Positions 1 through 28,311 of a stretch of 32,000 nt of DNA are shown here, piece by piece; position 1 is the first letter of the stretch; each line of letters begins with the position of its first letter. The notes beneath the pieces are model-generated. The model saw only the letters and a list, made by a program, of their open reading frames with translations. It was not told the DNA's origin and made no database searches. A program made the position numbers and the translations under genes. The stretch is from Candidatus Nanopusillus acidilobi. GTDB taxonomy: Archaea; Nanobdellota; Nanobdellia; Nanobdellales; Nanobdellaceae. Location: contig CP010514.1 of NCBI GenBank assembly GCA_001552015.1, forward strand, positions 90,001-122,000. Direction: 5' to 3'.

Positions 1-1330
1 TATTTTTATTAATATCTCCTAAGTAAACTAAAGGACATTCTTTTCCAACAATAATTCCATTTACATTTTGTATATTATCATATACACCAGTTGGGCAATT
101 TATTGTATCTCCGTTTAAATTATATTCACAGAAAGGATCTGCTGCTAAGAATACATAATCTGGTTCTCCGCTTGTATTTAAAAATGAAATATATAATCTT
201 ATTACCTCATGCCATGGATAATCAATGAATACTTGCTGACAATTTGGTGGTATATCTACTACACCTCTATAAAATGCTCCAACAATTAATTCCTGATTAC
301 CCGGATTAGCCTGATTACCTTCGCAAAGAGAATTGCCTATATAATATGTACCAAATTCTTCTTGGCATGCTTCATTTAAATATTGTTGTGGGATTATAAA
401 TTCTGCTAATCTATTTATATCAGTAGCAGTTCTATAAATAGGAGGACCTTGATAATAATAAGGTATAGATGTTAGATATTGATTATAAGTTTCAGGGCAT
501 TGTTCTGTATTATAAATACATAAATATCCGGAAAAGAAATTAGGCAAACTAGAGTTAGGTTGTGCTGGCGTACTATCTCCGCCTATATAATTTGGAAATA
601 AATTCCATTCATCCTGTGGACAATATACAGAAGCGTTTGTAAAATTATAATTTGGAAATATTTCCGTTAATGGCGTACAGTATCCATTTTGTACGGCTTG
701 AGATTGAGATAGATCATTATATAATGCTGGTAAGCCCCATAAACTTACTGACGCAGATTGATGAAATGGCGCTGTTGCATTTACCCATCCTGCTCCATAT
801 AAAGTTTGACTTACCGGTATATTAATATTTTCTGTATAATTATTTACAAAGAAATATGTATAATTCCATTCATACCATTGTGTACCGTCAGGATCCGGTG
901 GAGGATTCATTGAACAAGGATCCCAATTTCCAATATTACCAGCTACTATAAACATTTGAACAATCCATCCTGTTACTGGTGGGATAAAATATATTGTAAG
1001 GTTCCATCTATTTCCATATATATTATCAAAGTAATTTATCAAATCTTCTGATATGTTTGTACATGTATTTTGATTTATACAATATGTATCATTTCCAGAA
1101 GATGAAAAATATGATAATAAAAATGCATAGGATAAATTAACATTATTGTCATAAATATATGGTAATAAATCAAGGCTATTTTGAATTGTTAATGTATATT
1201 GATTTTCTACATTATATGTTTGTGTTATTTTAGAGTTAGAGCTAGTAGTTAATAGATAAACTAAAAGAATTGATAAAATTATTATTGAAATAATAATAAC
1301 AAATGTTAATGTATTTATCTGATTTTTCAT
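1..1330 (-). CDS. Cys-rich secreted or membrane-anchored protein of unknown function; 5' end complete, 3' end beyond the window (about 443 codons visible)
   Basis: ATG at 1330..1328 overlaps the TGA stop of the upstream ORF (ATGA). My manual translation (MKNQINTLTFVIIISIIILSILLVYLLTTSSNS...GIIVGKECPLVYLGDINKN) stays open to position 2. It is absent from the ORF track, apparently because it is edge-truncated. It has an N-terminal hydrophobic helix, many Cys and many N-x-S/T sequons. No family recognised. Confidence 0.6.
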   Translation of the reverse strand, partial: MKNQINTLTFVIIISIIILSILLVYLLTTSSNSKITQTYNVENQYTLTIQNSLDLLPYIYDNNVNLSYAFLLSYFSSSGNDTYCINQNTCTNISEDLINYFDNIYGNRWNLTIYFIPPVTGWIVQMFIVAGNIGNWDPCSMNPPPDPDGTQWYEWNYTYFFVNNYTENINIPVSQTLYGAGWVNATAPFHQSASVSLWGLPALYNDLSQSQAVQNGYCTPLTEIFPNYNFTNASVYCPQDEWNLFPNYIGGDSTPAQPNSSLPNFFSGYLCIYNTEQCPETYNQYLTSIPYYYQGPPIYRTATDINRLAEFIIPQQYLNEACQEEFGTYYIGNSLCEGNQANPGNQELIVGAFYRGVVDIPPNCQQVFIDYPWHEVIRLYISFLNTSGEPDYVFLAADPFCEYNLNGDTINCPTGVYDNIQNVNGIIVGKECPLVYLGDINKN

Positions 1331-2151
1331 TTTAGATAATATAAAAGTATAATTAGGCCTATTATTATAATTACTATTACTATTGCTGCTGGCAAAATCA
1401 AATTGACGTTATTTATTTTATTACTTACATTTGGTTGTGGATAAATTAATTGTTGGGTACTATTTGTTAAATTTACTTCAGTTTGATTTATGCATTCAAA
1501 TACTCCTGTACATGATATATATACAATATTTGGTGGTGGACATTGCTGTAAAAATTCTTGATATAACTGATTTAATGAATAATTATATGGACATCTAAAC
1601 CAATCTCCTTCAAAAGATAAGTTTTCTGGGCAATATCCGCATTGATATTCTATTTTATATACATTCAATACTGATTGATATGATTCATTATTTGTTAAAT
1701 AAGATTGAGGTATATATGGAGGATTAAAACATGGATAAATCTGATTTGAACATGGTTGATAATACCATGGTGTATTTGAACAATTTAGTAAACTATTACA
1801 TAATGTTGGTACAGGTATAATTATGTCTTGATATGCTGATGGAGGAATTAATGCATATGGACTAACTAATGTTCCATTTGGATATTCGCAATAACTACTA
1901 TTTACATATATTAATCCATAATGGGCGCAAAAAGAATATTGGGGTGATACATTATTTTCATAATATTGTAAAGCATTAAAGTATGTACCATTTATAATAC
2001 AATAAGAACCTGTACTATTTGTATAATATGTTCCTCCTCCGTATTCACAATAAACTGCAAGTGGATTTCTCATAGAATATATATTATAAGATAAAATTAA
2101 GAAAGAGATTATAGATAATATTACTAAATATTTATTGTGAAAGAGTGACAT
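1327..2151 (-). CDS. Cys-rich (14 Cys), sequon-dense exoprotein with an N-terminal signal/anchor and a C-terminal TM anchor
   Basis: 274-aa ORF. N-terminus KYLVILSIISFLILSYNIYS; C-terminus LILPAAIVIVIIIIGLIILLYYLK. About 15 N-x-S/T sequons. It overlaps the upstream protease gene by 20 nt and the downstream gene by 4 nt. No family recognised. Confidence 0.6.
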   Translation of the reverse strand: MSLFHNKYLVILSIISFLILSYNIYSMRNPLAVYCEYGGGTYYTNSTGSYCIINGTYFNALQYYENNVSPQYSFCAHYGLIYVNSSYCEYPNGTLVSPYALIPPSAYQDIIIPVPTLCNSLLNCSNTPWYYQPCSNQIYPCFNPPYIPQSYLTNNESYQSVLNVYKIEYQCGYCPENLSFEGDWFRCPYNYSLNQLYQEFLQQCPPPNIVYISCTGVFECINQTEVNLTNSTQQLIYPQPNVSNKINNVNLILPAAIVIVIIIIGLIILLYYLK

Positions 2152-3583
2152 TTTGGATTGCGATTATATAGTAGGGAAATGTTAGGCCATAAGGAGATTG
2201 ATCAAATGGTACATACATATATCCATCTTGTATCCAATAAACACCTCCACATTCTACTTCTGTTGTGTTAAAAACCGATTGTAGATAATTATTACAATCC
2301 TGATAATTTTTATATAGTTCACCGCATAGACTAAGATTGTCTGGTCCAAGCGCTGGTACTCCGTTTGTAGTAAAAACTATACAGCCCGTAATATTTCCCC
2401 ATTGATTCTCAAATATCCAACAATCCTGTGTTCCATATACTTCTCCGCATAGTTGAGAATATGCAGTATCGCCAGTAGTATAGCCAACTAATAACATGGC
2501 ATGTCCAGAATTGGATGCTATTTGACTTGGATATGGCCCACCGCTTCCTGCTAGAAATCCAGCAGCTACTAATGGTCCATAGCATAATAAGTCCTGGATT
2601 ATCTGTTGATCTGATAAGGGTCCATTTTCAGATAAGTAAATAACGCCTTCTGGGTAATATAGTGGAAAAGTAGGTCCATTATAATTGTGATTACATACAT
2701 CACCTGGATAGCTTTGATTAAAGTTCTGTGAACAATTATATAAAGTAGAATCATAATAGTTCCATCCTTGATCAGGTGGAATTCCATATTGAGATGCAAA
2801 AAATATAGCAGAGTATGGATCACCTTCATTACAACCTTCGTTTATACTACAATATCCTGGAGTATTTGGATAACCATTATTACATTCTATTGCTAAATAT
2901 GCTGGAGATAATGTTAATTCTTCATTAGGTTCATTATTTCTTATCATATATATTGAAGCAATTCCATTTGAAGATGCAAATGCCCAACAATCTCCGCATT
3001 CTCCCTGATCTCCTATTGGAGGTAAATAGTCATTTCCATTTACATCACCCCAGAAAAAGCTTGTTTGTCCATTATATGTAAATAAACATTGTGAATTTTG
3101 ATTATTATTTGGAGAGTTTTGATTATTTTCTGAGGTTATATATACAAGAGTTCCACTTGGTAAATATTGATTAAATATATTAATTGAATTTTGAAGATTT
3201 GTTGTAATAAAAACAGTATTATTTGTACTAACAAGGTATATATAATTATTTGGATATAGAAAACTCACATTTTGATTATTATATAATGTTATATTCTTGT
3301 AAAAATTAATTGTATAATTATTGTTATCATATTGTATTATCAATTCTGTACCATTTGTATATAATAAAACTCCATTTGGTATATTAACTTTTATATAATA
3401 TGTACCTTGAATACTATTTATTGTATTTTGTAAATTCTGTAAACTGTTAATAAAATTTTCAAATATATATTCTTCCTGTTCTTTTTTAATATTTAAAGAA
3501 TATTGATAATATATTAGGAAAGATAATGATATAATTACCAATATTATTGCTATTGAAAGTAAATTTAATTGATTCTTTTTCAT
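2132..3583 (-). CDS. N-terminally membrane-anchored papain-family (peptidase C1) cysteine protease
   Basis: 483 aa. TM helix LLSIAIILVIISLSFLIYY, a beta-rich domain of about 130 aa, an N/Q/S linker (NNQNSPNNNQNSQ), then C1 motifs. These are DQGECGDCWAFAS (Gln193, Cys199; compare papain NQGSCGSCWAFS), SGHAMLLVGY (His361) and WIFENQWG (Asn393). The segment GCNEGDPYSAIFFASQYGI matches the papain GCNGGYP...GI region. Confidence 0.8.
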   Translation of the reverse strand: MKKNQLNLLSIAIILVIISLSFLIYYQYSLNIKKEQEEYIFENFINSLQNLQNTINSIQGTYYIKVNIPNGVLLYTNGTELIIQYDNNNYTINFYKNITLYNNQNVSFLYPNNYIYLVSTNNTVFITTNLQNSINIFNQYLPSGTLVYITSENNQNSPNNNQNSQCLFTYNGQTSFFWGDVNGNDYLPPIGDQGECGDCWAFASSNGIASIYMIRNNEPNEELTLSPAYLAIECNNGYPNTPGYCSINEGCNEGDPYSAIFFASQYGIPPDQGWNYYDSTLYNCSQNFNQSYPGDVCNHNYNGPTFPLYYPEGVIYLSENGPLSDQQIIQDLLCYGPLVAAGFLAGSGGPYPSQIASNSGHAMLLVGYTTGDTAYSQLCGEVYGTQDCWIFENQWGNITGCIVFTTNGVPALGPDNLSLCGELYKNYQDCNNYLQSVFNTTEVECGGVYWIQDGYMYVPFDQSPYGLTFPYYIIAIQNVTLSQ

Positions 3584-3618
3584 TATGATCTAATAATATT
3601 TAAAAATTTTAAAAAATT

Positions 3619-4059
3619 TTAACTTGGATTTTCTATATAAATTGTTACCTGTGTTGGAGATGTTTTTTCGACAAGTAATGGAATTTTTTCATTTGGATTT
3701 CCATATGATAATTCATAAAATAATCCTGAAGTATAATATTGAATCATATTATTTGTTGTATTTATTATTACATTGCATGGTATTGTATAATTATAATATT
3801 TATCATATATATAACAACTTAATAAGTTGTTATTACTGTAAATATAATTTAAATATTTGTTTATTTCAATGTTAATATATACTCCTGTTCCATTGTTAGA
3901 ATAACATACTTCTTCAACTGTAGAATATAGATTTTGGCATGAATATATATCTTGATATAATAATTGGGTCTGATTATTTATATTAGCAAATTTAAAATAT
4001 AAATATATAGATAAACCAAAAGCAATGATTGTTACAACTATCCAAAACCAATTTTCCAT
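3619..4059 (-). CDS. Small N-terminally anchored Cys-pair protein (pseudopilin-like candidate), paralog 4
   Basis: 146 aa. N-terminal helix WFWIVVTIIAFGLSIYLYF. 4 Cys arranged as SCQ-x10-C and SCY-x13-C. It sits in the coupled operon. Confidence 0.55.
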   Translation of the reverse strand: MENWFWIVVTIIAFGLSIYLYFKFANINNQTQLLYQDIYSCQNLYSTVEEVCYSNNGTGVYINIEINKYLNYIYSNNNLLSCYIYDKYYNYTIPCNVIINTTNNMIQYYTSGLFYELSYGNPNEKIPLLVEKTSPTQVTIYIENPS

Positions 4060-4061
4060 TT

Positions 4062-4475
4062 TTATCCCTGGACATTAATATAGACATAATTTCCTGCCGA
4101 ATATACTAATATATATTCTCCAGTATTTATATTATAATTACAATTTTGCATTACTACATTTGGATCTATACTACTTACATTATTTATTAAATCCTGACAT
4201 GTAAATGGGTTTCCCTGATAGTTAATTAAATAGCAAAGACCCCGGGCTTTTTTATAATAACATGATACTACATCCATTGCAACATCTTGTATTGAAGTTA
4301 CATTTGTTTCTACTACAGTTTGTGTATTATTATATTTTGGCATTATACTACTAATGTAAGAAGTTATATTTCCTTTTAATAAAAATATTATTCCTAAAAT
4401 TACCAATGTAACAGTTATTCCAATAATTATTAAAAATGTATAATTTATTGGAAGTTCTTGTGACTTTATTGCCAT
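4062..4475 (-). CDS. Small N-terminally anchored Cys-pair protein (pseudopilin-like candidate), paralog 3
   Basis: 137 aa. MAIKSQELPINYTFLIIIGITVTLVILGIIFLL. 4 Cys (SCY-x8-C, TCQ-x19-C). There is a 2-nt gap to the next gene. Confidence 0.55.
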   Translation of the reverse strand: MAIKSQELPINYTFLIIIGITVTLVILGIIFLLKGNITSYISSIMPKYNNTQTVVETNVTSIQDVAMDVVSCYYKKARGLCYLINYQGNPFTCQDLINNVSSIDPNVVMQNCNYNINTGEYILVYSAGNYVYINVQG

Positions 4476-4945
4476 ATTACAATATAACTATTGTTGTATA
4501 TTATAAATATGCTATTATATGGATAAATATTTCCATTATTATTATTTAAATGAAATATAATATTATTTGGATTAAATTCAGTATAATTTTGCACATATTG
4601 AATTAATATTGATGAATTCAAAGTAATATTTTCATCTATATAAACATCATAACATACATTAAATAATTTATCTGTATTTACATTATTATTATAGCAATTT
4701 AATATTAATCCTATTATATCTGAATAAATTGTATCATTGCTTTCATTTGTATAAATAATATTTATTGAAGAAGGATAATATTTTTCACATGATGGGGAAA
4801 AACCACCTTGTGATATTAATGTTTGACAATAATATGCTTGAGAATTACTAAAAAATTTTGTATAAATAATATCTAATATAACTACAACAGATATTATCGC
4901 TATTATTATTATAAATATGGTATCTATTGTTATATCGTTCTTCAT
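4466..4945 (-). CDS. Small N-terminally anchored Cys-pair protein (pseudopilin-like candidate), paralog 2
   Basis: 159 aa. MKNDITIDTIFIIIIAIISVVVILDII. 4 Cys (YCQ-x12-C, NCY-x14-C). It overlaps its neighbours by 10 nt and 4 nt. Confidence 0.55.
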   Translation of the reverse strand: MKNDITIDTIFIIIIAIISVVVILDIIYTKFFSNSQAYYCQTLISQGGFSPSCEKYYPSSINIIYTNESNDTIYSDIIGLILNCYNNNVNTDKLFNVCYDVYIDENITLNSSILIQYVQNYTEFNPNNIIFHLNNNNGNIYPYNSIFIIYNNSYIVIWQ

Positions 4946-5226
4946 ATATAATTAATACTTCCATTATAAATATATATAATTCTATAGCCAGAGGGAATTG
5001 TTATTCCATTTATTGTACAATTTTCACTAAGAAATACTTTAATATTTATTATTTCCTGAAAACTTTTATTATATAGGTCTTCTAGTTGTTGACAATTAAT
5101 AATTTGTATACTATTTCCTCCCAAATTATTTTTTACATTATAAATATAATAAAAAGAAAATAAACCGGCAATTATAATTAATATAAAGGTTATTATAATC
5201 CAATATATTGATTGCTGTAATCTCAT
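4942..5226 (-). CDS. Small N-terminally anchored Cys-pair protein (pseudopilin-like candidate), paralog 1
   Basis: 94 aa. MRLQQSIYWIIITFILIIIAGLFSFYYIY. 2 Cys (NCQ-x24-C). ATGA overlaps on both sides. Confidence 0.5.
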   Translation of the reverse strand: MRLQQSIYWIIITFILIIIAGLFSFYYIYNVKNNLGGNSIQIINCQQLEDLYNKSFQEIINIKVFLSENCTINGITIPSGYRIIYIYNGSINYI

Positions 5227-7193
5227 AATTGTATATTTATTGGTAAATATGGGCCAAATACTGTATATACTATTAATATTCCTATTATTGAAAATATTAC
5301 ATAAAATATTGTTCCAAACAATAAGTTTTTACCTATATAATATGATGTCATTGTTTTATCAAATCCATATTTTATTCCTGCGCTCATATATGAAGTTATT
5401 ATTACATATTCTATAAAAAATATACCAATTATTGCTTCAAAGAATGTTGGTGGTATTAAATTATATAGATTAAAGGTATTTGCAACGAAATTATATAGAT
5501 TAGCTCCACTACCTAAACCAAAGGATTGATCTATTAATTGAAAGAAATATGCAAGTGCAAAAAGCATTGAAACTATTCCGTTATTAAAAACTGTAACCAT
5601 TGCAGAAATTAATGGTACTAGATTTTTTGATGTAATATCTATCAATCCAATTACTTCATTTAATATCTTTCTTACATTATATCTTATGCTATCTACATTT
5701 TCTAAATTTGTTGATATATTATATGCAATCTTTGATAAAACTTCAGGACCTTTTGATGAAGAAGTAACTAAAAGTTGCATGGATTCCCTTACTAATTTTG
5801 ATGGATATAGATTTAATGAACCAATTTTTGGATCAAATATAGAAGTATTTAAATCATAGCCTCTTCTTAAATTATATAATGTTGTTTTTAGGAAATTTTC
5901 CATAACTCCAGAGGATTTTATTATTCTATAATTATAGTATGTTTTTTCAACTACCATTTCAAATGGATAGCCATCTTCTAATAATGATGCAAACTCATAT
6001 ACAACAATTGGGAATTCATTTTCTATTTCTTCAATTTGATATATTTTCTTAACTCTTTGGAAAGATGTTAAATAATAATAGGATCCTATACCCAAACCCA
6101 ATCCTAAAGGTAATGCTAAAGTTAAAACAGAATATATTAATGCTCTATCTTGATAAACTATATTTAAATAATCACTTAAGAATCCTTGTGGAATAGATGT
6201 AATTTTTATAGCTAAAGAAATTAAATGATATATTCCTAAAATTGCAATTGATCCCAATATTATTGAAATTATTATTGCTGGAATTTCATTATCTCCAATT
6301 TTAAATCTTCCAGGTTTTGGTAGATCTCTTGCTAAAGATAAATCTGGAACAGAAAATGCAAATGGGTTCTTTGATAAAAAGTTCTGAATTATTAAAAATG
6401 TAATAACTGGTAAAATTATTATATATGAAAATGCTATGAAATAGAAACTTACAGTATTTAATAAAAATACAGATATTATTGGTAACATAATCAAGCTAAC
6501 TATTGGAAGCATTACTAAGAAAGATACAATAACTGTTGCTGGTTCTTTTAAAGCATCTACATATAATTGAGATTTTTCTAATGATTTCTTCAATACCCAT
6601 CCTAATATTCTATCTAATAATTTGTTTATATCATCAATAGAATTCTTATATTTAATATTTACAATATGAGTCATTGCATATACAAAATCTGGGCTTAGAT
6701 AAAACCATCTTCTTTGATAATATTCTAATGCAGATTCAATATCATTAAATTTATTTGTTTCTAAATTATATAATAATGATTTAAAGTCTGTTGCAATATA
6801 ACCCTTCATATAATATGCTACATATTTTATTCCATTTTCCAAATTAGGATTTCTTTTTAGATATAATGATAAATATAATATTATCCATATAACTTCTGAT
6901 GTTACTTGTATTCTAACAATTTGTGTATAGAATATTGGATAATATGCAAAATAAAATGATAATATCAATAAAGAAATTAATAAAGAAAAAGCTAATTGAA
7001 AGCTAACAAAACTTAAAATAAAATATATAATTATAGAAAATAATGTTAGGGTTATTACAGAAGAAAATATATTATCTGGATTTGTATTTAGTCTATTTAA
7101 CCATAAATGAAATGCATATTTTTTATATATAGAATCAGGGGCTTTTAATTTTATTAAATTAAAATTATTATAAAAATATTCAAAAAAACTCAT
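5223..7193 (-). CDS. Polytopic membrane protein, candidate type IV pilus / T2SS / archaellum platform protein (PilC/TadC/FlaJ-like, two T2SS-F-like repeats)
   Basis: 656 aa with many TM helices. Two soluble helical segments follow the remembered T2SS-F pattern. They are EVIWIILYLSLYLKRNPNLENGIKYVA...DIESALEYY...SPDFVYAM and EFPIVVYEFASLLEDGYPFEMVVEK...LYNLRRGYDLNTSIF...YPSKLVRESMQLLVTSSSKGPEVLSKIA. Each is followed by TM helices. The gene lies directly downstream of a pilin-like gene. The assignment rests on pattern recognition only, not on an HMM score. Confidence 0.5.
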   Translation of the reverse strand: MSFFEYFYNNFNLIKLKAPDSIYKKYAFHLWLNRLNTNPDNIFSSVITLTLFSIIIYFILSFVSFQLAFSLLISLLILSFYFAYYPIFYTQIVRIQVTSEVIWIILYLSLYLKRNPNLENGIKYVAYYMKGYIATDFKSLLYNLETNKFNDIESALEYYQRRWFYLSPDFVYAMTHIVNIKYKNSIDDINKLLDRILGWVLKKSLEKSQLYVDALKEPATVIVSFLVMLPIVSLIMLPIISVFLLNTVSFYFIAFSYIIILPVITFLIIQNFLSKNPFAFSVPDLSLARDLPKPGRFKIGDNEIPAIIISIILGSIAILGIYHLISLAIKITSIPQGFLSDYLNIVYQDRALIYSVLTLALPLGLGLGIGSYYYLTSFQRVKKIYQIEEIENEFPIVVYEFASLLEDGYPFEMVVEKTYYNYRIIKSSGVMENFLKTTLYNLRRGYDLNTSIFDPKIGSLNLYPSKLVRESMQLLVTSSSKGPEVLSKIAYNISTNLENVDSIRYNVRKILNEVIGLIDITSKNLVPLISAMVTVFNNGIVSMLFALAYFFQLIDQSFGLGSGANLYNFVANTFNLYNLIPPTFFEAIIGIFFIEYVIITSYMSAGIKYGFDKTMTSYYIGKNLLFGTIFYVIFSIIGILIVYTVFGPYLPINIQL

Positions 7194-7198: not shown

Positions 7199-7960
7199 TT
7201 AGCTTGTTACACTTGGTATATTATTTAACTGAGAATATGGTACCTGCAATAAGAATTGACATAATGGCATTCCATTAACATTATTATTTATACCCAATGC
7301 TGTGCAATTTCCAGTTACTGTTAATATTCCATTACTAACTGTTAAATTCAAATTACATCCATCTGCAGTATTATAATAGTTAGCAATATCCAATAATGCA
7401 CCAAATACCTGATTTGTAATCCATGTTGGTAATTGTGCAGAACATTGTACTGGACCTGGATTTAATATTTGTGATGGAGAAGAAATATAAATATTTTCTT
7501 GTCCATTTGTTACATTAAAATATGTAGCAGAAGAATAATTTCCAAATACATAACTTGTTGCTTGTTCTGGATTATAATATAAATTATCAATATAATTCTG
7601 GCATTCTAAATACATGCAATCAAGAGGTGATATAGAATATCCTTCATATTGACATTGACTAGAAGAACCTCCATATAATTGTAATACTACACTACATGGA
7701 ACAGCATTTGAACAAACATAATATCCAGGACTTGTTTGTACAAGTCCATTTCCTATATCTTCATACTTTGTACAAAATGTATATGGGCTTGAACAATAGC
7801 TTGAACAATCTGAAACTGCCTGTTGTATTTGAGTATTTGATATTTGGCTAATCTTTGAAGATTGTTGCTGGAATAATTTAATTACAATCACTGCCACTAC
7901 TAACATTATTATTATTACAAATATTATTTCTACAGCCATATCTATACCTCTCTTTTTCAT
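7199..7960 (-). CDS. Type IV pilin-like protein with a class III (prepilin-type) signal peptide and a Cys-rich (12 Cys) globular domain
   Basis: 253 aa. N-terminus MKKRG|IDMAVEIIFVIIIMLVVAVIVIKLF: a basic stretch, Gly, then a hydrophobic helix with Glu at about +6. First gene of the operon. TTTATAAA lies about 23 nt upstream of the ATG. Confidence 0.6.
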   Translation of the reverse strand: MKKRGIDMAVEIIFVIIIMLVVAVIVIKLFQQQSSKISQISNTQIQQAVSDCSSYCSSPYTFCTKYEDIGNGLVQTSPGYYVCSNAVPCSVVLQLYGGSSSQCQYEGYSISPLDCMYLECQNYIDNLYYNPEQATSYVFGNYSSATYFNVTNGQENIYISSPSQILNPGPVQCSAQLPTWITNQVFGALLDIANYYNTADGCNLNLTVSNGILTVTGNCTALGINNNVNGMPLCQFLLQVPYSQLNNIPSVTS

Positions 7961-9283: not shown

Positions 9284-9598
9284 ATGGGTAAATCTACTAA
9301 AAGGTCTAAATCTAAAAAAACTTCTAAAGTTAATAAACCTAAAAAAGATTTAAGGGAATTATCTGAAATTGATATAACAAAACATTATTTAGTACCAAAA
9401 CATATAATATTATCTGAAGAAGAAAAGAAGGAATTATTGGAAAAGTATAAGGTATCTTTATTAGATTTACCAAAGATCAAAATCTCGGATCCTGCATTAA
9501 AGAATCTAAATGCTAAGCCAGGGGATGTTGTTAAGATTATAAGGAATAATCCATGGATTGGGGAAGAAGTATATTATAGAGTTGTTGTTGAGGATTAA
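9284..9598 (+). CDS. rpoH: DNA-directed RNA polymerase subunit H (Rpo5), with a basic N-terminal extension
   Basis: 104 aa. [57 protein letters not shown]...YRVVV is the Rpb5/RpoH C-terminal domain. It sits at the head of the rpoB/rpoA operon. Confidence 0.85.
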
Positions 9599-9630
9599 GC
9601 TTATAAGGATATCATATATATAAATAAAAA

Positions 9631-11148
9631 GTGGCTAATAATAATATAGATAATTATATCTTATTCTATAAATACTTGGAGGAAAATGATCTCTTAGGAG
9701 TACAACTAAGGTCCTTTGAATACTTCGTTGATGTAGAAATGACAAAGATTGGAAGGGAATTGGGAACATTTTCTCCAAGATTATTGGCTCCAGGATTAAG
9801 AGATTTACAATTTAAAATAGAAAGATTGTGGTTGGGGAAGGCAGATTTTATGGAGAAAGAAGGGGTTTCCAGATTAATATATCCAATAGAAGCTAGAATT
9901 AGAGGACTTACATATGCTGGAACAGTATATATGGAATTTTCTGTATATGAAAACGAAACATTTAAGAGTAAATATCAAGTAGCTATTGGTAGATTGCCAA
10001 TAATGGTTAGATCAAAATATTGTAATACTTATGGATTATCTGAAGAGGAATTAATAAGAATTGGAGAAGATCCGACAGATAGAGGTGGATATTTTATTAT
10101 TAATGGAAATGAAAAATTAATTATATTGTCTGAAGAACTTGCTACAAACAAATTTTATGTTCAAAAAGAATCTGGTTCTATAAAATATAGTGGATATTTA
10201 TTATCAGAATCTTTAACTCAATTAAAGGCTCATAGAATGGAAATGACAAAAGATGGTTTATTATATTTATCATTTGAGAAATATAAAAGGATTCCTTTAA
10301 TACCTTTAGTAAGGGCTCTGGGTTTAGAAAAGGATGTTGAAATAAATCAACTAATTTCTGAAGGGGATGATTTTGAAGAAGTATATATTAATTTATTGGA
10401 ATTCCAAGATATAAAAACTTCTGAGGATGCAATAAGATATTTGGCTGATAAATTAAAATTAACAGGATCTCCAGAAGTTAAAAAAGAAAAATTATTATCA
10501 ATACTAGATAATTTATTATTACCGAATATTGGAACATCACCGAATGATAGATTATTAAAGGCATACAATTTATTGAAGATGGCAAGAAAGTTATTATTAT
10601 TAGCTCATGAAAAAATTGATGAAGATGTAAAAGATCACTTTGCAAATAAAATAGTTAGAACACCTGGAGAACTAATAAGAGAATATTTCTTAGTTACTTT
10701 AAGAACATTGATGACAGATGCAATGTATCAATATGAAAGGTTGGTGAAAAGAGGGAAGATACCTTCATATACATCTATATTTAGATCAAAAATATTTAGT
10801 GAGAGATTTGAAAATGTAATGGCTATTGGAAAATGGACAAGGAATAGAACTGGAATTGCGCAAGCTTTAGATAGAACAAATAAAATTTCTGTTTTATCTC
10901 ATCTAACAAGGGTTGTTTCTTCAATATCTAGTGAAGCTGAATTATTAGAAGCAAGAATGGCTCATGGTACTCATTGGGGTAGATTAGATTTAATAGAAAC
11001 ACCTGAAGGTCATGAAACTGGATTAAGAAAAAATAAAACAATATTAGCAAAAATAAGTTTTGAAGAGATTGATAAAAATGAATTAATTAGGAAATTGGAG
11101 GATATAGGATTAAGGCCAATAGTTAAAAATGTTTCAGATAAAAAATAA
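9631..11148 (+). CDS. rpoB2: DNA-directed RNA polymerase subunit B'' (N-terminal part of split Rpo2)
   Basis: 505 aa with a GTG start. Typical Rpb2 N-terminal motifs (GGYFIINGNEKLII, IETPEGHETGL). It is followed 2 nt later by B'. Confidence 0.9.
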   Translation: MANNNIDNYILFYKYLEENDLLGVQLRSFEYFVDVEMTKIGRELGTFSPRLLAPGLRDLQFKIERLWLGKADFMEKEGVSRLIYPIEARIRGLTYAGTVYMEFSVYENETFKSKYQVAIGRLPIMVRSKYCNTYGLSEEELIRIGEDPTDRGGYFIINGNEKLIILSEELATNKFYVQKESGSIKYSGYLLSESLTQLKAHRMEMTKDGLLYLSFEKYKRIPLIPLVRALGLEKDVEINQLISEGDDFEEVYINLLEFQDIKTSEDAIRYLADKLKLTGSPEVKKEKLLSILDNLLLPNIGTSPNDRLLKAYNLLKMARKLLLLAHEKIDEDVKDHFANKIVRTPGELIREYFLVTLRTLMTDAMYQYERLVKRGKIPSYTSIFRSKIFSERFENVMAIGKWTRNRTGIAQALDRTNKISVLSHLTRVVSSISSEAELLEARMAHGTHWGRLDLIETPEGHETGLRKNKTILAKISFEEIDKNELIRKLEDIGLRPIVKNVSDKK

Positions 11149-11150
11149 AA

Positions 11151-12953
11151 ATGGCATATGAGGTTTATGTAGATAGTATTTTTGTTGGATATGTTGATGA
11201 TGTTAATAAATTTATTGAAGAATTTAAGGAGAAGAGAAGAAAAGGTATTATTCCATATTTTGTAAATATACATTTTGATGAAACAAGGAATGTTATAGAG
11301 ATATTAACAAGAAAAGGAAGGATTTTAAGACCTTTGATTGTTGTAAAAGATGGAAAGCTATTATTAACAAAGGAGCATATTGAAAAATTAAAGAGAGGAG
11401 AAATAAAATGGTCTGATTTAGAAAAGGAAGGTATAATTGAATGGGTTGATCCTGCTGAAGAAGAAAATTTAAATGTTGCATTATATCCTGAAGATATAAA
11501 GGAAAATACAACTCATTTAGAGTTATCTTCTCTAGTAATATTTGGTATAGCTACATCTTTAGTTCCATTTTCAAATAGAAATCAATCTGCAAGATTAAAT
11601 AGAGGTGTTAGACCACAGAGACAGGCTCATGCTATATATTCATTGAATTTCCATAATAGATTCGATACTGATATATCAATTTTATATTATCCTCAATATC
11701 CGATTACTAGAACATTTTCTTTTAATATATTTAAGGATGATTATGCAATAGGACAAAATGTAATTGTTGCTGTAATGACACAGGAAGGATATAATATTGA
11801 AGATGCAATTATCATGAATAAAGGTTCAATAGATAGGGGTTTATTTAGATCTGTGTATTTTAGATCTTATGAAATAGAAAGATTAAGATATTCTGGAGGA
11901 TTACAAGATGAAATTACAATTCCAGATCCTTCTGTAGAATTATATAGAGGAAAAGATAAATATAAAAATTTAGAAGAAGATGGAATTGTTTCTGTCGAAT
12001 CATTTGTAAAGCCTGAAGAAGTTCTTGTTGGTAGGGTATCACCCCCAAGATTTATTGGTTTAACTTCTGAATCTATTGCAACAGGTTTAAGAAAGAAGGA
12101 TTCTTCATTAACTACTGGTAGTGGGGAAGAAGGGTGGGTAGATAAGGTTGTAATAACAGAATCTGATGATGGAAATTTATTAGTTAGGATAAAATTAAGG
12201 GACTTAAGAATTCCAGAACTTGGAGATAAATTTTCTGTAAGACATGGACAGAAAGGTGTTTTGGGAATGATTGTTGACCCATCAGATATGCCTTGGTCAT
12301 CTTCAGGTCTTGTTCCAGATATAATATTTTCTCCTGCTGGAATTCCTTCAAGAGAAACTGTTGGTTTATTATTAGAATTGCTTGCTGGAAAGATTGGTAG
12401 TTTAAATGGAAGGTATGTTGATGGAACTCCATGGTATGGAGAAAGTGAAGAAGAATTAAGGAAAGAATTATTATCTTTAGGATTTAGAGAAGATGGAACA
12501 GAAACATTATATAATCCTTTAACTGGAGATGAATTTAAAGTCAAAATATTTATTGGAAGTATTTATTATTTAAGATTAAAATATATGGCAAAGAACAAAT
12601 TACAAGCAAGAGCAACAGGTCCTGTTACTTTATTAACAAGACAACCAACAGAAGGTAAATCAAAGAAAGGTGGTTTGAAATTCAGTGAAATGGAACATGA
12701 AGTTCTTGCTGCTCATGGTGCTTCTATATTATTAAGGGAAATGTATTCTTCTGATGATACAACAATTTATGTTTGTGAAAAATGTGGTTCTCTTGCTGTT
12801 GAAGATAATATAAGAAATAGGGTTTATTGTCCTGTTTGTGGTGAAACTGAAAAAATATCAAAAGTTAAGGTTTCTTATGCATTCTACTTATTATTAAATG
12901 AATTAATTTCTCTTGGAATTTGGCCTAAGCTTAAGTTAAATTATAAGTTTTAA
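11151..12953 (+). CDS. rpoB1: DNA-directed RNA polymerase subunit B' (C-terminal part of split Rpo2)
   Basis: 600 aa. GDKFSVRHGQKGV, GGLKFSEMEHEVLAAHGA and the C-terminal Zn ribbon CEKCG...CPVCG. Confidence 0.92.
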   Translation: MAYEVYVDSIFVGYVDDVNKFIEEFKEKRRKGIIPYFVNIHFDETRNVIEILTRKGRILRPLIVVKDGKLLLTKEHIEKLKRGEIKWSDLEKEGIIEWVDPAEEENLNVALYPEDIKENTTHLELSSLVIFGIATSLVPFSNRNQSARLNRGVRPQRQAHAIYSLNFHNRFDTDISILYYPQYPITRTFSFNIFKDDYAIGQNVIVAVMTQEGYNIEDAIIMNKGSIDRGLFRSVYFRSYEIERLRYSGGLQDEITIPDPSVELYRGKDKYKNLEEDGIVSVESFVKPEEVLVGRVSPPRFIGLTSESIATGLRKKDSSLTTGSGEEGWVDKVVITESDDGNLLVRIKLRDLRIPELGDKFSVRHGQKGVLGMIVDPSDMPWSSSGLVPDIIFSPAGIPSRETVGLLLELLAGKIGSLNGRYVDGTPWYGESEEELRKELLSLGFREDGTETLYNPLTGDEFKVKIFIGSIYYLRLKYMAKNKLQARATGPVTLLTRQPTEGKSKKGGLKFSEMEHEVLAAHGASILLREMYSSDDTTIYVCEKCGSLAVEDNIRNRVYCPVCGETEKISKVKVSYAFYLLLNELISLGIWPKLKLNYKF

Positions 12954-16702: not shown

Positions 16703-16975
16703 ATGGTAACATTTGATGATTTAAGAAAGAAAATTGTTGATGAGAAAAAGATAGTTATTGGATATAATAGAACTTTGAAAAAGATTAAAAGAGGAGAGGT
16801 AGAAAAAATATTTTTAGCAAAAAATGTTCCTGAAAATATAAAAAAGGACATAGAATATTATCAGAAGTTGGGAAATTTTGAAGTAGAGGTATTAAATTAC
16901 TCAAATGAAGAAGTAGGTTTGCTATTGAAAAAGCCATTTAAAATTTCTGTTATATCTATATTAAAGAATGGCTAA
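16703..16975 (+). CDS. rpl30e: Ribosomal protein L30e
   Basis: 90 aa with the L7Ae/L30e-like pattern ([37 protein letters not shown]...[14 protein letters not shown]). It is in the canonical position after rpoA2. Confidence 0.8.
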
Positions 16976-17396
16976 TGGATTATTTGCTGCTAAGAAATTA
17001 GTTGAAAATAGAAAAAAATTTAGATGGAGTAAGAAAGAATGGAAGAGAAGAATATTGAAATTAAAAGAAAAATATGATCCTTTGGAAGGAAGTCCAATGG
17101 CATCAGGAATTGTATTAGAAAAAGTACAGATTGAAAAAAGACAGCCATATTCTGGAATGATAAAATGTGTAAAAGTGCAATTAAAGAAAAATGGAAAAAT
17201 TGTTACATCATTTGCTCCAGGTGATAAGGCAATAAAATATATTGATGAACATGATGAAGTATTAATAGTTGGAATAGGAGGACCAAAGGGAAGAACTATA
17301 GGTTCAATACCTGGAGTAAGATATAAGGTAATACTAGTAAATGGACAACCTTTGGAATTATTAAGAAAGGGTAAGATAGAAAAAGCTAGAAGATAG
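16968..17396 (+). CDS. rps12: Ribosomal protein S12 (uS12)
   Basis: 142 aa. [50 protein letters not shown]...[14 protein letters not shown]...IPGVRYKV. It overlaps the rpl30e stop by 8 nt. Confidence 0.9.
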
Positions 17397-22775: not shown

Positions 22776-23405
22776 TTATAATATAATGCTTTCCATAATA
22801 TTTTTGGCTTTAGAAGCATATTTTTCATATTTTTCTGAATATTCATCAAATATATTATAAAGCAAGTCTCTATCATAACCATGTTTTCTCATTAAATAAG
22901 TTAGAATTCCTATATCATTTAAGTCTTTTTCTTCTTTTCTTCTTAAATAAGTAAATATTTTATCTACTAGTAAATATTCCATTCCAGCAACATATAATTT
23001 TATTATCTTTTTACCTAGCTTTAATTCTATTATATTATATGGTACTTCTTTATCTTTAAATAATATACTTATGCTTGGTCCATATTTATATTTAATTTCA
23101 ATTCCATCGTACCCAAATATTCTCCCCTCCTTAATTGATAAATCTGATAATTTTCCATATATTATTTCTTTTGCTTTTGTTTCCTGATTTTCATTTATTA
23201 TGAAATCTATATCTTTAGTTTCTCTATTATAATTTTCATTATAATATTTTGCATATGCAGCTACAGCCATTCCGCCTATTAATATTGGTTTTATATCATA
23301 ATCACTAGCAAATGCTTTTAATATACTTTCAAGGTTTTTTATTGTAAGCTTATCAGTTAATTTATAACTTTCCTTTGATATGTCTTGTGATGTTATATGC
23401 GGCAT
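22776..23405 (-). CDS. Predicted nucleotidyltransferase (MNT-fold; AbiEii / DUF2204-like)
   Basis: 209 aa. ILIGGMAVAAYAKYY...RETKDIDFII fits the GG-x(n)-[RK]-x-[ST]-x-D-[IL]-D NTase motif of AbiEii-type proteins. There is a helical C-terminal half. No partner ORF is adjacent. Confidence 0.45.
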   Translation of the reverse strand: MPHITSQDISKESYKLTDKLTIKNLESILKAFASDYDIKPILIGGMAVAAYAKYYNENYNRETKDIDFIINENQETKAKEIIYGKLSDLSIKEGRIFGYDGIEIKYKYGPSISILFKDKEVPYNIIELKLGKKIIKLYVAGMEYLLVDKIFTYLRRKEEKDLNDIGILTYLMRKHGYDRDLLYNIFDEYSEKYEKYASKAKNIMESIIL

Positions 23406-28132: not shown

Positions 28133-28165
28133 TTTATAATTTCTTTTTATCATAAAATTTATATT

Positions 28166-28238: not shown

Positions 28239-28311
28239 GGTTCGATTATCATGAATGGTTAAGGTTATTAACAATCATAGTTTTATATTGGACAATGTTT
28301 TCTAATATCTT

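What the first reader, a model, noticed from the sequence alone, without database searches (positions are those of the whole stretch)
2132..3583. Papain-family cysteine protease carrying a pilin-like N-terminal anchor and an extra N-domain
The C-terminal 300 aa carry the full C1 catalytic set: Gln193 and Cys199 in DQGECGDCWAFAS, His361 in SGHAMLLVGY, and Asn393-Trp in FENQWG. Instead of a signal peptide plus an I29-type propeptide, the N-terminus has three parts. These are a short basic stretch and a TM helix (MKKNQLNLLSIAIILVIISLSFLIYY), a beta-rich domain of about 130 aa that resembles the small neighbouring proteins in composition (IKVNIPNGVLLYTNGTELIIQY...), and an N/Q/S linker. Papain-like peptidases are uncommon in archaea as far as I know, and I have not seen one embedded in a pilin/platform operon. 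The odd Cys count (15) fits 7 disulfides plus a free catalytic thiol. A possibility is that the protease is displayed on, or delivered by, the filament or pseudopilus.
Basis: partly seen in the sequence, partly recalled or inferred. Interest (0 to 1): 0.65.

Follow-up and report, generated by a model that had tools for sequence, protein, structure and literature searches.

The report
Pilin-like cysteine protease of nanoarchaea
A tiny parasitic archaeon of hot acid springs encodes a papain-type protease joined to a pilus-subunit-like stalk, inside a conserved gene cluster for a surface filament machine, which makes it a candidate tool for working on the host cell surface.

Summary
ORF 2132-3583 (-) encodes a 483-aa protein with a true papain-family (C1) domain: Pfam PF00112 E=1.6e-17, cathepsin-like fold, and Gln193/Cys199/His361/Asn393 conserved in 38-39 of 39 relatives. 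There is no I29 propeptide.

The N-terminus has a short basic leader, a predicted 55-residue helix, a small beta sheet and a variable N/Q/G-rich linker.

The window comes from a Nanopusillaceae nanoarchaeon. The gene sits at a fixed place in a 12-gene cluster that keeps its order in every relative examined. A 656-aa protein in the cluster is a probable, very divergent T2SSF/TadC/FlaJ-type platform.

- In strain YN1 the N-domain is a separate 141-aa protein, and the C1 domain is fused to the homologue of the neighbouring 146-aa protein. The N-part is therefore an exchangeable carrier module, not a propeptide.
- The overlapping downstream gene encodes the counterpart of the DUF333 region that precedes the catalytic domain in half of the closest other C1 peptidases.

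"Pilin" is supported by architecture and context only. There is no Gly/Ala cleavage site, no fold match to solved pilins, and no ATPase or prepilin peptidase in the cluster. Display on a filament and action on the host surface are inferences. I rate it a new variant of a known kind, of moderate interest.

The parts
2132..3583 (-). Whole gene: 483-aa modular protein made of a pilin-like carrier module, a linker and a C1 (papain-family) peptidase.
   Evidence: ORF. PF00112 E=1.6e-17. 42 homologues, all in Nanopusillaceae-type archaea. AF2 model with pLDDT 69.6.
3500..3583 (-). Residues 1-28: short basic leader MKKNQ followed by a 20-residue hydrophobic helix. Gln5 is invariant.
   Evidence: Read from the sequence. 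Q5 is invariant even in relatives at 27-46% identity, including the stand-alone N-domain proteins. No Gly/Ala cleavage site is present.
3413..3499 (-). Residues 29-57: amphipathic continuation of the N-terminal helix. The helix 3-57 is the length of pilin alpha-1.
   Evidence: AF2 gives helix 3-57 in both models. The N-domain model has pLDDT 88.8.
3164..3412 (-). Residues 58-140: small beta-sheet head (7 strands) plus one helix. Contains no cysteine.
   Evidence: Mean pairwise identity is 80%, higher than the catalytic domain. No structural neighbour in PDB.
3089..3163 (-). Residues 141-165: N/Q/S(G)-rich flexible linker.
   Evidence: pLDDT below 50 for residues 141-164. Length is 24-77 aa among relatives.
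2135..3088 (-). Residues 166-483: C1 catalytic domain with Q193, C199, H361, N393 and W395, 15 Cys, and a hypervariable helical insert at 401-445.
1327..2151 (-). 274-aa protein whose gene overlaps the protease gene by 20 nt. It has a signal peptide, a DUF333-like region, a Cys-rich part and a C-terminal membrane anchor. It is the counterpart, encoded separately, of the pre-catalytic region of related C1 peptidases.
   Evidence: DUF333 below threshold (E 0.0042; 3.4e-4 and 4.8e-4 in orthologues). hhalign of the family against the DUF333 pre-region of DUF333-C1 fusions gives prob 96.5%, E=7.4e-10 over 83 columns. BLASTP against P0054 gives E=8e-4.
3619..4059 (-). 146-aa small protein with an N-terminal hydrophobic helix and 4 Cys. 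In strain YN1 its homologue carries the C1 domain.
   Evidence: 59% identity, E=7e-60 to residues 1-142 of the YN1 579-aa C1 protein. Weak profile similarity to the protease N-domain: prob 55%, E=1.2e-4.
4062..4475 (-). 137-aa small protein. Its N-terminus MAIKSQELPINYTF is a degenerate class III (prepilin-type) leader.
   Evidence: hhalign against the MKSQGLPMQ-type N-termini that lie next to an ATPase/platform pair in L007 gives prob 92%, E=6.9e-7 over 29 columns. Glu replaces the Gly at -1.
4466..4945 (-). 159-aa small protein with an N-terminal hydrophobic helix and 4 Cys.
   Evidence: Position conserved in all loci.
4942..5226 (-). 94-aa small protein. N-terminus MRLQQSIYW followed by a hydrophobic helix.
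   Evidence: Position conserved.
5223..7193 (-). 656-aa polytopic membrane protein. Probably a very divergent T2SSF/TadC/FlaJ-type platform protein.
   Evidence: Distant homologues at 26-29% identity, E 1e-55 to 1e-75. Two of them hit PF00482: P0201 residues 153-281, E=3.6e-5, 24.2 bits against a cut-off of 25.2; P0200 residues 400-527, E=0.054. A third, P0202, directly follows a T2SSE ATPase. The best PDB hit of the profile is the GspF cytoplasmic domain, E=0.41. The window protein itself has no Pfam hit.
7199..7960 (-). 253-aa first gene of the cluster. N-terminus MKKRG|IDMAVE followed by a hydrophobic helix. 12 Cys. It is the only cluster protein that keeps Gly/Ala at the expected -1 position.
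   Evidence: The sequence in four loci has G or A after K/R-K/R-R. No family hit.
1..1330 (-). First 443 residues of the next cluster gene (542-aa family). N-terminus MKNQINTLTF. Cut by the window edge.
   Evidence: Three further cluster genes (about 400 aa polytopic, about 410 aa with 24 Cys, 215 aa) lie beyond the window in relatives.

Best explanation
The gene encodes an active, extracellular papain-family cysteine endopeptidase, rich in disulfides and N-glycosylation sites, built on the plan of a modular pilin.

**Architecture.** An N-terminal carrier module is joined by a flexible linker of variable length to the catalytic domain. The carrier has a short basic leader, a helix of about 55 residues whose first half is hydrophobic, and a small beta head.

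**Context.** It is one subunit of a 12-gene surface apparatus derived from type IV filament (TFF) machinery and specific to Nanopusillaceae-type nanoarchaea. The other parts are a divergent TadC/FlaJ-like platform, several small proteins with the same kind of N-terminus, and Cys-rich glycoproteins.

**Proposed sequence of events.**
1. The hydrophobic helix inserts the protein into the membrane with the enzyme outside.
2. The catalytic domain folds and forms up to seven disulfides. It is possibly helped or kept latent by the DUF333-like domain of the membrane-anchored protein encoded by the overlapping next gene. That domain is the counterpart, encoded separately, of the region that precedes the catalytic domain in related C1 peptidases.
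3. The carrier module is built, together with the other small subunits, into a short fibre or pseudopilus by the platform and an ATPase encoded elsewhere. This places the protease at or beyond the S-layer.
4. There it cuts surface proteins, most plausibly of the host at the contact site, or it cuts peptides for uptake.

**Shown:** the C1 identity and catalytic residues; the absence of an I29 propeptide; the modular and exchangeable nature of the N-part; the conserved cluster; the homology of the downstream gene to the pre-catalytic region of related peptidases; the probable platform.

**Inferred:** secretion topology, disulfides, action of the DUF333 protein in trans, assembly into a filament, and the substrate.
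For: - **C1 domain, catalytic residues and fold:**
- **N-domain is an independent module.** In YN1 it is a stand-alone 141-aa protein (E=1e-32), and the C1 domain (44% identity, E=1e-74) is fused to the homologue of the 146-aa neighbour (E=7e-60).
- **N-domain is more conserved than the enzyme.** 80-81% against 71-73% mean identity, as expected for an assembly interface.
- **Predicted N-domain shape.** Helix 3-57 plus a beta head, pLDDT 88.8.
- **Shared N-termini.** M-[KR]-x-(x)-Q followed by a hydrophobic helix recurs in 6 other cluster proteins. One has a canonical K-R-G/A site.
- **137-aa family.** Its N-terminus matches canonical MKSQG|LP leaders of a related ATPase/platform locus (prob 92%).
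- **Gene order.** Conserved in six lineages.
- **Platform.**
- **Downstream gene.** Homologous to the DUF333 pre-catalytic region (prob 96.5%, E=7.4e-10). 72 of the 141 closest non-family C1 proteins carry that region a median of 60 residues before the catalytic Cys motif, and none of the Nanopusillaceae family does.
- **Precedents in the literature.** Archaeal class III signals occur on substrate-binding proteins and proteases (PMC2910488). Bacterial modular pilins include peptidase modules (PMC8179133). Cysteine peptidases of the transglutaminase family are linked to archaeal T4P loci (PMC4858521).
Against: - No Gly/Ala at a -1 position in the protease leader, and no Pfam or NCBIfam pilin model hits.
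- Foldseek of the confident N-domain model finds no pilin (best E 0.2). The profile search of PDB finds nothing either.
- The N-domain profile does not match the canonical pilin N-termini of L007. Similarity to the 146-aa family is weak (prob 55%), and similarity to the other small proteins is limited to the hydrophobic helix.
- The cluster contains no T2SSE ATPase and no A24 prepilin peptidase in any locus. Nanoarchaea were reported to lack an identifiable prepilin peptidase (PMC4858521).
- The window's 656-aa protein has no T2SSF hit of its own. The link runs through distant homologues with hits below threshold. An internal repeat is not significant (E 0.17).
- No expression, localisation or activity data exist. 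The Nanopusillus acidilobi paper does not mention this protein or pili.
Confidence: 0.55

Rival explanations
1. It is a plain membrane-anchored ectoprotease. The N-terminal hydrophobic helix is only an uncleaved signal anchor and the N-domain a stalk. The enzyme stays in the membrane under the S-layer and digests peptides for a parasite that cannot make amino acids. The cluster is just a co-regulated set of surface proteins, with no filament assembly.
For: No Gly/Ala cleavage site. No pilin fold match. No ATPase or prepilin peptidase in the cluster. Nanoarchaea lack an identifiable prepilin peptidase (PMC4858521). The cultures are grown on peptone and yeast extract, and the organism depends on imported amino acids (PMC4935971).
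Against: This reading does not explain four things. The N-domain is more conserved than the enzyme. The N-domain exists as a stand-alone protein. The C1 domain was moved onto another small cluster protein in YN1. The gene keeps a fixed place directly after a platform-like gene and four small proteins with the same N-terminal plan in all lineages.
Confidence: 0.3
2. It is a maturation or turnover protease for the apparatus itself. It trims or activates the Cys-rich glycoproteins or small subunits of the same cluster on the outer face of the membrane, as has been proposed for the transglutaminase-family peptidases linked to other archaeal T4P loci.
For: Strict co-occurrence with the cluster. The published precedent is a genomic association only (PMC4858521).
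Against: The leaders of pilin-type proteins face the cytoplasm, so an extracellular enzyme cannot remove them. No conserved cleavage motif was looked for or seen in the partner proteins. A long flexible linker of variable length (24-77 aa) fits reach to an outside target better than a fixed processing site.
Confidence: 0.1
3. The N-domain is an unusual inhibitory propeptide or intramolecular chaperone that is removed to release a soluble secreted protease.
For: It occupies the position of a propeptide, and the enzyme has no I29 domain.
Against: It is encoded as a separate gene two positions away in YN1, where the C1 domain is instead preceded by an unrelated module. It has a membrane helix. 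It has no similarity to I29 or to the cathepsin C exclusion domain. The real counterpart of the pre-catalytic region of related enzymes is the DUF333-like domain of the next gene.
Confidence: 0.03
4. The C1 domain is a non-catalytic binding module: a pseudo-protease used as an adhesin.
For: One of the 39 relatives (P0038) has lost Gln193 and Trp395.
Against: Cys199 and His361 are invariant in 39 of 39. Gln193 and Asn393 are kept in 38 of 39, including in relatives at 27-44% identity.
Confidence: 0.02

Closest known systems
Prokaryotic DUF333-C1 peptidases (uncharacterised; often labelled 'C1A family cysteine protease' or 'putative hemolysin')
   Same: They are the closest catalytic domains outside the family (E about 1e-17 to 1e-10). 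72 of the 141 nearest hits carry a DUF333-containing region a median of 60 residues before the catalytic Cys motif. The same region is found here in the overlapping downstream gene (prob 96.5%).
   Different: Here that region is not part of the protease polypeptide. It sits on a separate protein with a C-terminal membrane anchor. The catalytic domain is instead preceded by a helix-plus-beta-head carrier module. The function of DUF333 is unknown; the DUF333 literature search found no paper on its function.
Modular type IV pilins of bacteria (e.g. Streptococcus sanguinis PilB; PMC8179133)
   Same: A small pilin-type module (N-terminal hydrophobic helix of about 50 residues plus a beta head) is linked to a bulky functional module. 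Many architectures are catalogued, including predicted peptidase modules. The gene lies with the filament machinery.
   Different: Those proteins have a canonical class III leader ending in Gly, are processed by PilD, and have a recognised pilin signature (IPR012902). Here the Gly is absent, no pilin model or fold match was obtained, and the organism is an archaeon. The peptidase module reported for bacteria is a different family (IPR030392), not C1.
[quoted passage not shown]
   Same: Functional extracellular proteins use a pilin-type N-terminus and a FlaI/FlaJ-like assembly system with small pilin-like helper proteins to be positioned at the cell surface. No visible pilus is required.
   Different: Bindosome substrates carry a cleavable PibD site and only the signal, not a full helix-plus-head module. 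The cargo there is a binding protein. The Bas operon includes its ATPase.
Eukaryotic C1A zymogens (papain, cathepsins L, B, C)
   Same: Catalytic Gln/Cys/His/Asn-Trp set, the papain fold (Foldseek E 1e-8 to 1e-5) and conserved disulfide-forming cysteines.
   Different: No I29 propeptide and no exclusion domain. Extra cysteines (15 in total). A hypervariable helical insert in the R-domain. A membrane or filament anchor. Sequence relationship is distant (PDB phmmer E about 1e-5).
Transglutaminase-family (papain-like fold) peptidases linked to archaeal T4P loci (arCOG02164, arCOG09555, arCOG03450; PMC4858521)
   Same: A cysteine peptidase of the wider papain-like superfamily that is genomically tied to an archaeal type IV filament locus, with unknown role.
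   Different: A different family (transglutaminase-like, not C1), different lineages (methanogens), and not reported as fused to a pilin-like module.

Membership tests
Peptidase family C1 (papain family; Pfam PF00112, MEROPS C1A-like) | Significant match to the family profile above the curated cut-off | tested here: met
   PF00112 E=1.6e-17, 64.8 bits against a cut-off of 20.7, residues 186-399. All 42 homologues carry PF00112.
Peptidase family C1 (papain family; Pfam PF00112, MEROPS C1A-like) | Catalytic Cys25/His159 dyad with Gln19 and Asn175(-x-Trp177) in the conserved motifs | tested here: met
   C199, H361, Q193, N393 and W395 align with the falcipain motifs. They are conserved in 38-39 of 39 relatives. 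Codons verified.
Peptidase family C1 (papain family; Pfam PF00112, MEROPS C1A-like) | Papain fold (L and R domains) | tested here: met
   Foldseek against PDB finds cathepsins C, B, X, L and S at E 1.5e-8 to 2e-5, prob 1.00. The model has moderate confidence (pLDDT 69.6).
Peptidase family C1 (papain family; Pfam PF00112, MEROPS C1A-like) | I29-type inhibitory propeptide. This is typical of C1A zymogens but does not define the family. | tested here: not met
   No I29 hit. The N-domain has no structural neighbour. The counterpart of the pre-catalytic region of the nearest relatives is in the next gene.
Peptidase family C1 (papain family; Pfam PF00112, MEROPS C1A-like) | Thiol-dependent, E-64-sensitive peptidase activity | not testable with these tools
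   Needs expression of residues 166-483 and an enzyme assay.
Type IV pilins / archaeal class III signal peptide proteins | Short hydrophilic, positively charged leader followed by about 20 hydrophobic residues at the very N-terminus | tested here: met
   MKKNQ followed by LNLLSIAIILVIISLSFLIYY. Conserved in all relatives.
Type IV pilins / archaeal class III signal peptide proteins | Gly or Ala at position -1 of the prepilin peptidase site | tested here: not met
   There is no G or A before the hydrophobic stretch in any of the 39 relatives. Invariant Gln5 is followed by Leu/Ile. Canonical leaders in a related locus read MKSQG|LP. The 137-aa neighbour has Glu in place of that Gly. Only the 253-aa first gene keeps G/A.
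Type IV pilins / archaeal class III signal peptide proteins | Alpha-1 helix of about 50 residues protruding from a beta-sheet head ('lollipop') | tested here: inconclusive
   AF2 predicts helix 3-57 and 7 strands with pLDDT 88.8. Foldseek finds no solved pilin or archaellin (best E 0.2), and profile searches find none.
Type IV pilins / archaeal class III signal peptide proteins | Encoded with, and assembled by, a platform protein, a secretion ATPase and a prepilin peptidase | tested here: inconclusive
   A probable platform lies five genes upstream. No ATPase or peptidase is present in any of the six loci. Assembly itself cannot be tested here.
T2SSF / TadC / FlaJ platform proteins (for the 656-aa neighbour) | Match to PF00482 (two cytoplasmic T2SSF domains) | tested here: inconclusive
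   The window protein has no hit. Among distant homologues, P0201 hits residues 153-281 at E=3.6e-5, 24.2 bits (cut-off 25.2), and P0200 hits residues 400-527 at E=0.054. Five of 14 members hit at E<=1. The family profile's best PDB hit is the GspF cytoplasmic domain, E 0.41. The internal repeat is not significant.
T2SSF / TadC / FlaJ platform proteins (for the 656-aa neighbour) | Gene adjacent to a T2SSE-family ATPase | tested here: inconclusive
   Met for the distant homologue P0202, which starts at the stop of a 764-aa PF00437 protein. Not met in the window or in any close relative.
DUF333-C1 fusion peptidases | DUF333-containing region N-terminal to the catalytic domain in the same polypeptide | tested here: not met
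   None of the family members contains it. The homologous region is at residues 27-109 of the next gene's product. This is a split variant of that architecture.

The most novel reading that the evidence does not exclude
The 12-gene cluster encodes protein parts of the 'attachment organelle' or intercellular filament that cryo-ET showed in the relative YN1, whose components are explicitly unknown (PMC11420986). YN1 carries the same cluster (L005 = AP031373). In this reading the C1 protease fused to a pilin-like module is the tool at the tip or flank of that filament. It opens the host's S-layer so that the filament and cytoplasmic bridge can form. The membrane-anchored DUF333 protein keeps it latent or protects the parasite's own surface.
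Probability: 0.12. Interest if true: 0.85.

Novelty: new variant of a known kind. Interest (0 to 1): 0.55.

Why it matters
How nanoarchaea and other DPANN parasites attach to a host, breach its S-layer and draw on its cytoplasm is an open question. The papers on Nanopusillus, Nanobdella and YN1 all state that the proteins involved are unknown (PMC4935971, PMC11420986).

This finding gives a short, conserved and lineage-specific list of candidate genes, one of which has a clear and assayable biochemical activity. A recombinant catalytic domain can be tested on host S-layer preparations. Antibodies against the protease or its carrier module can be placed in tomograms.

It also shows two pieces of protein evolution of general interest:
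- An enzyme domain is moved between different pilin-like carriers within one operon.
- The pre-catalytic (DUF333) region of a prokaryotic C1 peptidase clade is split off into a separate membrane-anchored protein. This gives a first functional lead for DUF333.

If the ordinary reading is right, it is simply a membrane-anchored feeding protease of a parasite that needs peptides.

Tried and rejected
**Searches and comparisons that found nothing useful**
- Foldseek of the N-domain model against PDB: no pilin, no I29, no cathepsin C exclusion domain.
- Profile searches of PDB sequences with the N-domain and with the 274-aa family: nothing.
- NCBIfam on eight cluster proteins: nothing.
- Pfam on the other cluster proteins and on the small proteins of L007: only chance-level hits.
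- phmmer and a 4-sequence profile of the 656-aa protein against PDB: nothing. Only the deeper profile put GspF first, and weakly.
- Internal duplication of the 656-aa protein by hhalign: right register but not significant (E 0.17).
- The 401-aa polytopic protein as a second platform: no similarity.
- hhalign of the N-domain against the 137-, 159- and 94-aa families: only the hydrophobic helix aligns.
- hhalign of the N-domain against canonical pilin N-termini of L007: nothing.

**Ideas considered and set aside**
- Recent horizontal transfer of the C1 domain. GC3 is 0.17 against 0.09-0.15 elsewhere. The higher total GC comes from codon positions 1 and 2, that is, from amino-acid composition. 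There is no clear signal.
- A formal phylogeny was not attempted. The nearest outside relatives score only about 60-80 bits.

**Limits of what was done**
- Literature: no paper links Nanopusillus or Nanoarchaeota to a cysteine or papain-type protease. The DUF333 search found no paper on its function; the one paper opened matched DUF3335.
- The genome scan used patterns from the N-domain only, so it reports close relatives only.


Full report
**1. What is at the coordinates**

The ORF 2132..3583 on the minus strand encodes 483 residues. Pfam places residues 186-399 in Peptidase_C1 (PF00112) with E=1.6e-17 and 64.8 bits, against a cut-off of 20.7.

A sequence search of PDB finds falcipains, cathepsin C, cathepsin L, papain and cathepsin B at E about 1e-5 to 1e-3. 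The printed alignments put CGDCWAF on CGSCWAF, SGHAMLLVGY on NHAVILVGY and ENQWG on KNSWG. An AlphaFold2 model built on 39 relatives (pLDDT 69.6) matches cathepsins C, B, X, L and S in Foldseek at E 1.5e-8 to 2e-5.

I verified the codons of Gln193, Cys199, His361, Asn393 and Trp395. Across 39 full-length relatives, Cys199 and His361 are invariant. Gln193, Asn393 and Trp395 are each kept in 38. The 15 cysteines all lie in residues 166-483, and 13 are invariant.

The last 85 residues are not an extra domain. They are the final strands of the C1 R-domain, interrupted by a helical insert (401-445) that is the most variable part of the protein, at 41% mean identity.

**2. Where the window comes from and how the gene is distributed**

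The window has about 25% G+C and a split rpoB. All 42 homologues come from Nanopusillus, Nanobsidianus stetteri, 'Nanopusillaceae archaeon' or unnamed hot-spring metagenomes. One is already labelled 'Peptidase C1A subfamily [Candidatus Nanobsidianus stetteri]'.

A profile search of 1.84 billion representative proteins shows an isolated family. A few members score down to E=1.5e-30. The next hits are ordinary C1 peptidases at E about 1e-17. A scan of species-representative genomes found the family only in Nanopusillus, Nanobsidianus and Nanopusillaceae genomes. That scan used N-domain patterns, so it reaches only close relatives.

**3. The N-terminal part**

Both structure predictions give one continuous helix from residue 3 to 57. 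Seven beta strands (62-127) and a short helix (130-139) follow. For the N-domain alone the confidence is high: pLDDT 88.8, pTM 0.71.

Residues 8-28 of the helix are hydrophobic and the rest is amphipathic. The segment 141-165 is low-confidence and ranges from 24 to 77 residues in relatives, filled with N, Q, G and S.

This is the outline of a type IV pilin: a leader, an alpha-1 helix of about 50 residues and a beta head. That definition is taken from PMC8179133.

The resemblance is one of outline only:
- Foldseek finds no pilin or anything else (best E 0.2).
- A profile search of PDB sequences finds nothing.
- No pilin family model hits.
- The leader MKKNQ has no Gly or Ala at a cleavage position in any relative. 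Gln5, however, is invariant down to 27% identity.

**4. The N-part is a module, not a propeptide**

The representative search returned two proteins of 141-142 residues that match only profile positions 3-132. It also returned a C1 protein whose N-terminus is different.

Both belong to strain YN1, whose complete genome is AP031373 (PMC11420986). In YN1:
- The homologue of the N-domain is a separate gene (48% identity, E=1e-32).
- The C1 domain (44% identity, E=1e-74) is fused, through an extra Ser/Pro-rich stretch, to the homologue of the 146-aa protein (59% identity over residues 1-142, E=7e-60). In the window that protein is the gene just upstream of the protease.

The catalytic domain has thus been moved between two small proteins of the same operon. 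This rules out an obligatory intramolecular propeptide. It shows that the small proteins are interchangeable carriers.

The carrier is also more conserved than the enzyme, at 80-81% against 71-73% mean pairwise identity. By profile comparison, the N-domain resembles the 146-aa family weakly (prob 55%, E=1.2e-4 over 86 columns). It resembles the other small families only in the hydrophobic helix.

**5. The surroundings**

All on the minus strand, and mostly overlapping or a few bases apart, lie genes of 253, 656, 94, 159, 137 and 146 aa. The protease follows, then 274 aa, then a gene cut by the window edge.

In relatives the series continues with about 540, 400, 410 and 215 aa. The order is identical in six lineages, including those whose protease is only 27-44% identical. 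The series always lies between RimK/DUF371 and an arginase gene. Apart from C1, no cluster protein has a family assignment.

*The 656-aa protein.* It has no Pfam hit of its own. A profile of its orthologues finds homologues at 26-29% identity (E 1e-55 to 1e-75). The evidence linking these to platform proteins is:
- P0201 matches T2SSF over the whole model at residues 153-281 (E=3.6e-5, 24.2 bits against a cut-off of 25.2).
- P0200 matches at residues 400-527 (E=0.054).
- A third, P0202, begins at the stop codon of a 764-aa T2SSE ATPase (PF00437, E=9e-16). It is followed by a row of small proteins starting MKSQGLPMQTIV..., MKAQGLSMQFIV... and similar. From general knowledge of archaeal prepilins, these are canonical class III leaders.
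- The family profile's best PDB hit is the cytoplasmic domain of GspF, but only at E 0.41.

I take the 656-aa protein to be a very divergent TadC/FlaJ-type platform, and I mark that as probable, not shown.

*The N-termini of the cluster proteins.* The 137-aa family starts MAIKSQELPINYTF. This aligns with the MKSQGLPMQ leaders (prob 92%, E=6.9e-7), with Glu in place of the cleavage-site Gly. Five others, including the protease, start M-[KR]-x-(x)-Q followed by a hydrophobic helix. Only the first gene keeps K-R-G/A.

These look like class III leaders that have lost the cleavage residue. That fits the report that nanoarchaea lack a recognisable prepilin peptidase and that their pilins could not be identified (PMC4858521). 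No ATPase or peptidase lies in the cluster.

Published work says Nanoarchaeota have an archaellum, two T4P systems and four FlaJ/TadC homologues (PMC6142677). An ATPase encoded elsewhere is therefore plausible, but I did not test this.

**6. The downstream gene**

The 274-aa product has a signal peptide, a Cys-rich body and a C-terminal membrane anchor. Its start overlaps the protease stop by 20 nt.

Its N-terminal region gives DUF333 hits below threshold: E 0.0042 here, and 3.4e-4 and 4.8e-4 in two orthologues.

The nearest C1 peptidases outside the family turned out to be DUF333-C1 fusions (DUF333 E 1e-16 to 1e-20). An HMM of their pre-catalytic region finds it in 72 of the 141 closest non-family hits. 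Apart from one protein lacking the motif downstream, it lies upstream of the catalytic Cys motif, at a median of 60 residues. It is found in none of the Nanopusillaceae proteases.

A profile-profile comparison of the 274-aa family with that region gives prob 96.5%, E=7.4e-10 over 83 columns. Pairwise BLASTP gives E=8e-4.

So the catalytic domain belongs to a prokaryotic clade whose usual N-terminal partner is DUF333. Here the partner is encoded separately. Whether it acts as chaperone, inhibitor or something else is unknown. The DUF333 literature search turned up no paper on its function.

**7. Mechanism and rivals**

*Preferred reading (about 0.55).* This is an active extracellular C1 peptidase carried on a pilin-like module. 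It forms part of a filament-derived surface apparatus specific to this lineage, and the DUF333 protein is its partner in trans.

*Main rival (about 0.3).* The helix is merely an uncleaved signal anchor, and the enzyme is a feeding protease under the S-layer. The missing Gly, the missing pilin fold match and the missing ATPase speak for this rival. The conserved carrier, its stand-alone form, the domain swap and the fixed place behind a platform-like gene speak against it.

*Other rivals.* A role in maturing the apparatus itself is possible (about 0.1). The propeptide and pseudo-enzyme readings are nearly excluded.

*The substrate.* It is not known. Others have speculated that thermopsin-like peptidases of Nanobdella degrade the host S-layer (bioRxiv 10.1101/2023.10.27.564410). 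This C1 enzyme is not mentioned in any paper I could find.

**8. Comparison with what is known, and novelty**

- The enzyme is a member of family C1.
- The architecture works like a bacterial modular pilin (PMC8179133). It also works like the archaeal class III-signal proteins that are not filament subunits, such as the Sulfolobus bindosome proteins and the FlaFind-predicted proteases (PMC2910488).
- It fails the defining cleavage-site test for pilins, so I do not file it as one.
- It is a split variant of the DUF333-C1 architecture.
- The gene is already annotated as a C1A peptidase in public records.

What I could not find described is the carrier module, the exchange of that module within the operon, the separately encoded DUF333 partner, and membership of a conserved platform-containing cluster. 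I rate it a new variant of a known kind.

**9. The most novel reading not excluded**

YN1, which carries this cluster, builds a large attachment organelle with a 6.6-nm intercellular filament that enters the host. Its proteins are unknown (PMC11420986). The cluster is a reasonable candidate to encode parts of that organelle, and the protease a candidate for opening the host S-layer.

Nothing here tests that. I give it about 0.12.

Noticed in passing
window 28312-32000 (+), runs off the window end: A very large open reading frame of more than 1229 aa. It begins with a signal-peptide-like N-terminus (MDIKKISYFTIVSFLLLISTFNIYSQ) and has no Pfam hit. It is probably a giant surface or S-layer-type protein. 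The ORF list does not show it because it is cut by the window edge.
   Followed up: partly
window 19521-20882 (+) and 20879-21775 (+): Cytochrome bd oxidase subunit I (PF01654, E=1e-90), followed by an overlapping 298-aa ORF without a Pfam hit that may be subunit II. N. acidilobi was described as lacking any respiratory chain component (PMC4935971). Yellowstone Nanoarchaeota single cells were reported to carry a fast-evolving cytochrome bd oxidase (PMC6142677).
   Followed up: partly
window 21772-22602 (-) and 22776-23405 (-): A tyrosine recombinase/integrase (PF00589, E=4e-43) lies next to an AbiEii-like nucleotidyltransferase toxin (E=8e-7). This may be a small integrated element or toxin-antitoxin remnant in a very reduced genome.
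   Followed up: no
window 1327-2151 (-); L005:7153-8004 and L005:8439-8957: DUF333 is a domain of unknown function that is often annotated 'putative hemolysin'. It appears to be the habitual N-terminal companion of a large prokaryotic C1 peptidase clade (72 of the 141 nearest hits). YN1 has two DUF333-like genes in the cluster, the second a short 172-aa version.
   Followed up: yes
L005:5417-7156 (YN1), residues 143-284: The YN1 fusion protease has an extra stretch of about 140 residues between carrier and enzyme. It is Cys/Ser/Thr-rich and ends in a long (S/P)n linker. Neither is present in the window's protein.
   Followed up: no
L007/L008 7707-21929: A different DPANN genome has a full TFF-type locus: a 764-aa T2SSE ATPase, a 681-aa platform homologue, a 1092-aa protein, and more than ten small proteins with MK(S/A)QG|LP leaders and Cys-rich heads. 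None is recognised by Pfam pilin models.
   Followed up: partly
window 3584-3618 (-), between the 146-aa gene and the protease: This 35-nt spacer is the only sizeable gap inside the cluster. It contains TTTTTAAATA about 17-26 nt before the ATG. That could be an archaeal TATA box for a leaderless transcript, but such strings are common at 20% G+C.
   Followed up: no
window 9284-15625 (+), 16703-17396 (+): A standard archaeal transcription/translation block lies divergent from the cluster: rpoH, split rpoB (9631-11148 and 11151-12953), rpoA', then L7Ae/L30e and S12. The same neighbourhood is kept in all relatives. tRNA-Lys(CTT) is at 28165-28239.
   Followed up: partly
P0038 (relative, 62% identity): One family member has lost Gln193 and the Trp of the Asn-x-Trp motif while keeping Cys, His and Asn. 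It also has an unusually long Gly/Ser linker. It may be a degenerate or specialised copy.
   Followed up: no
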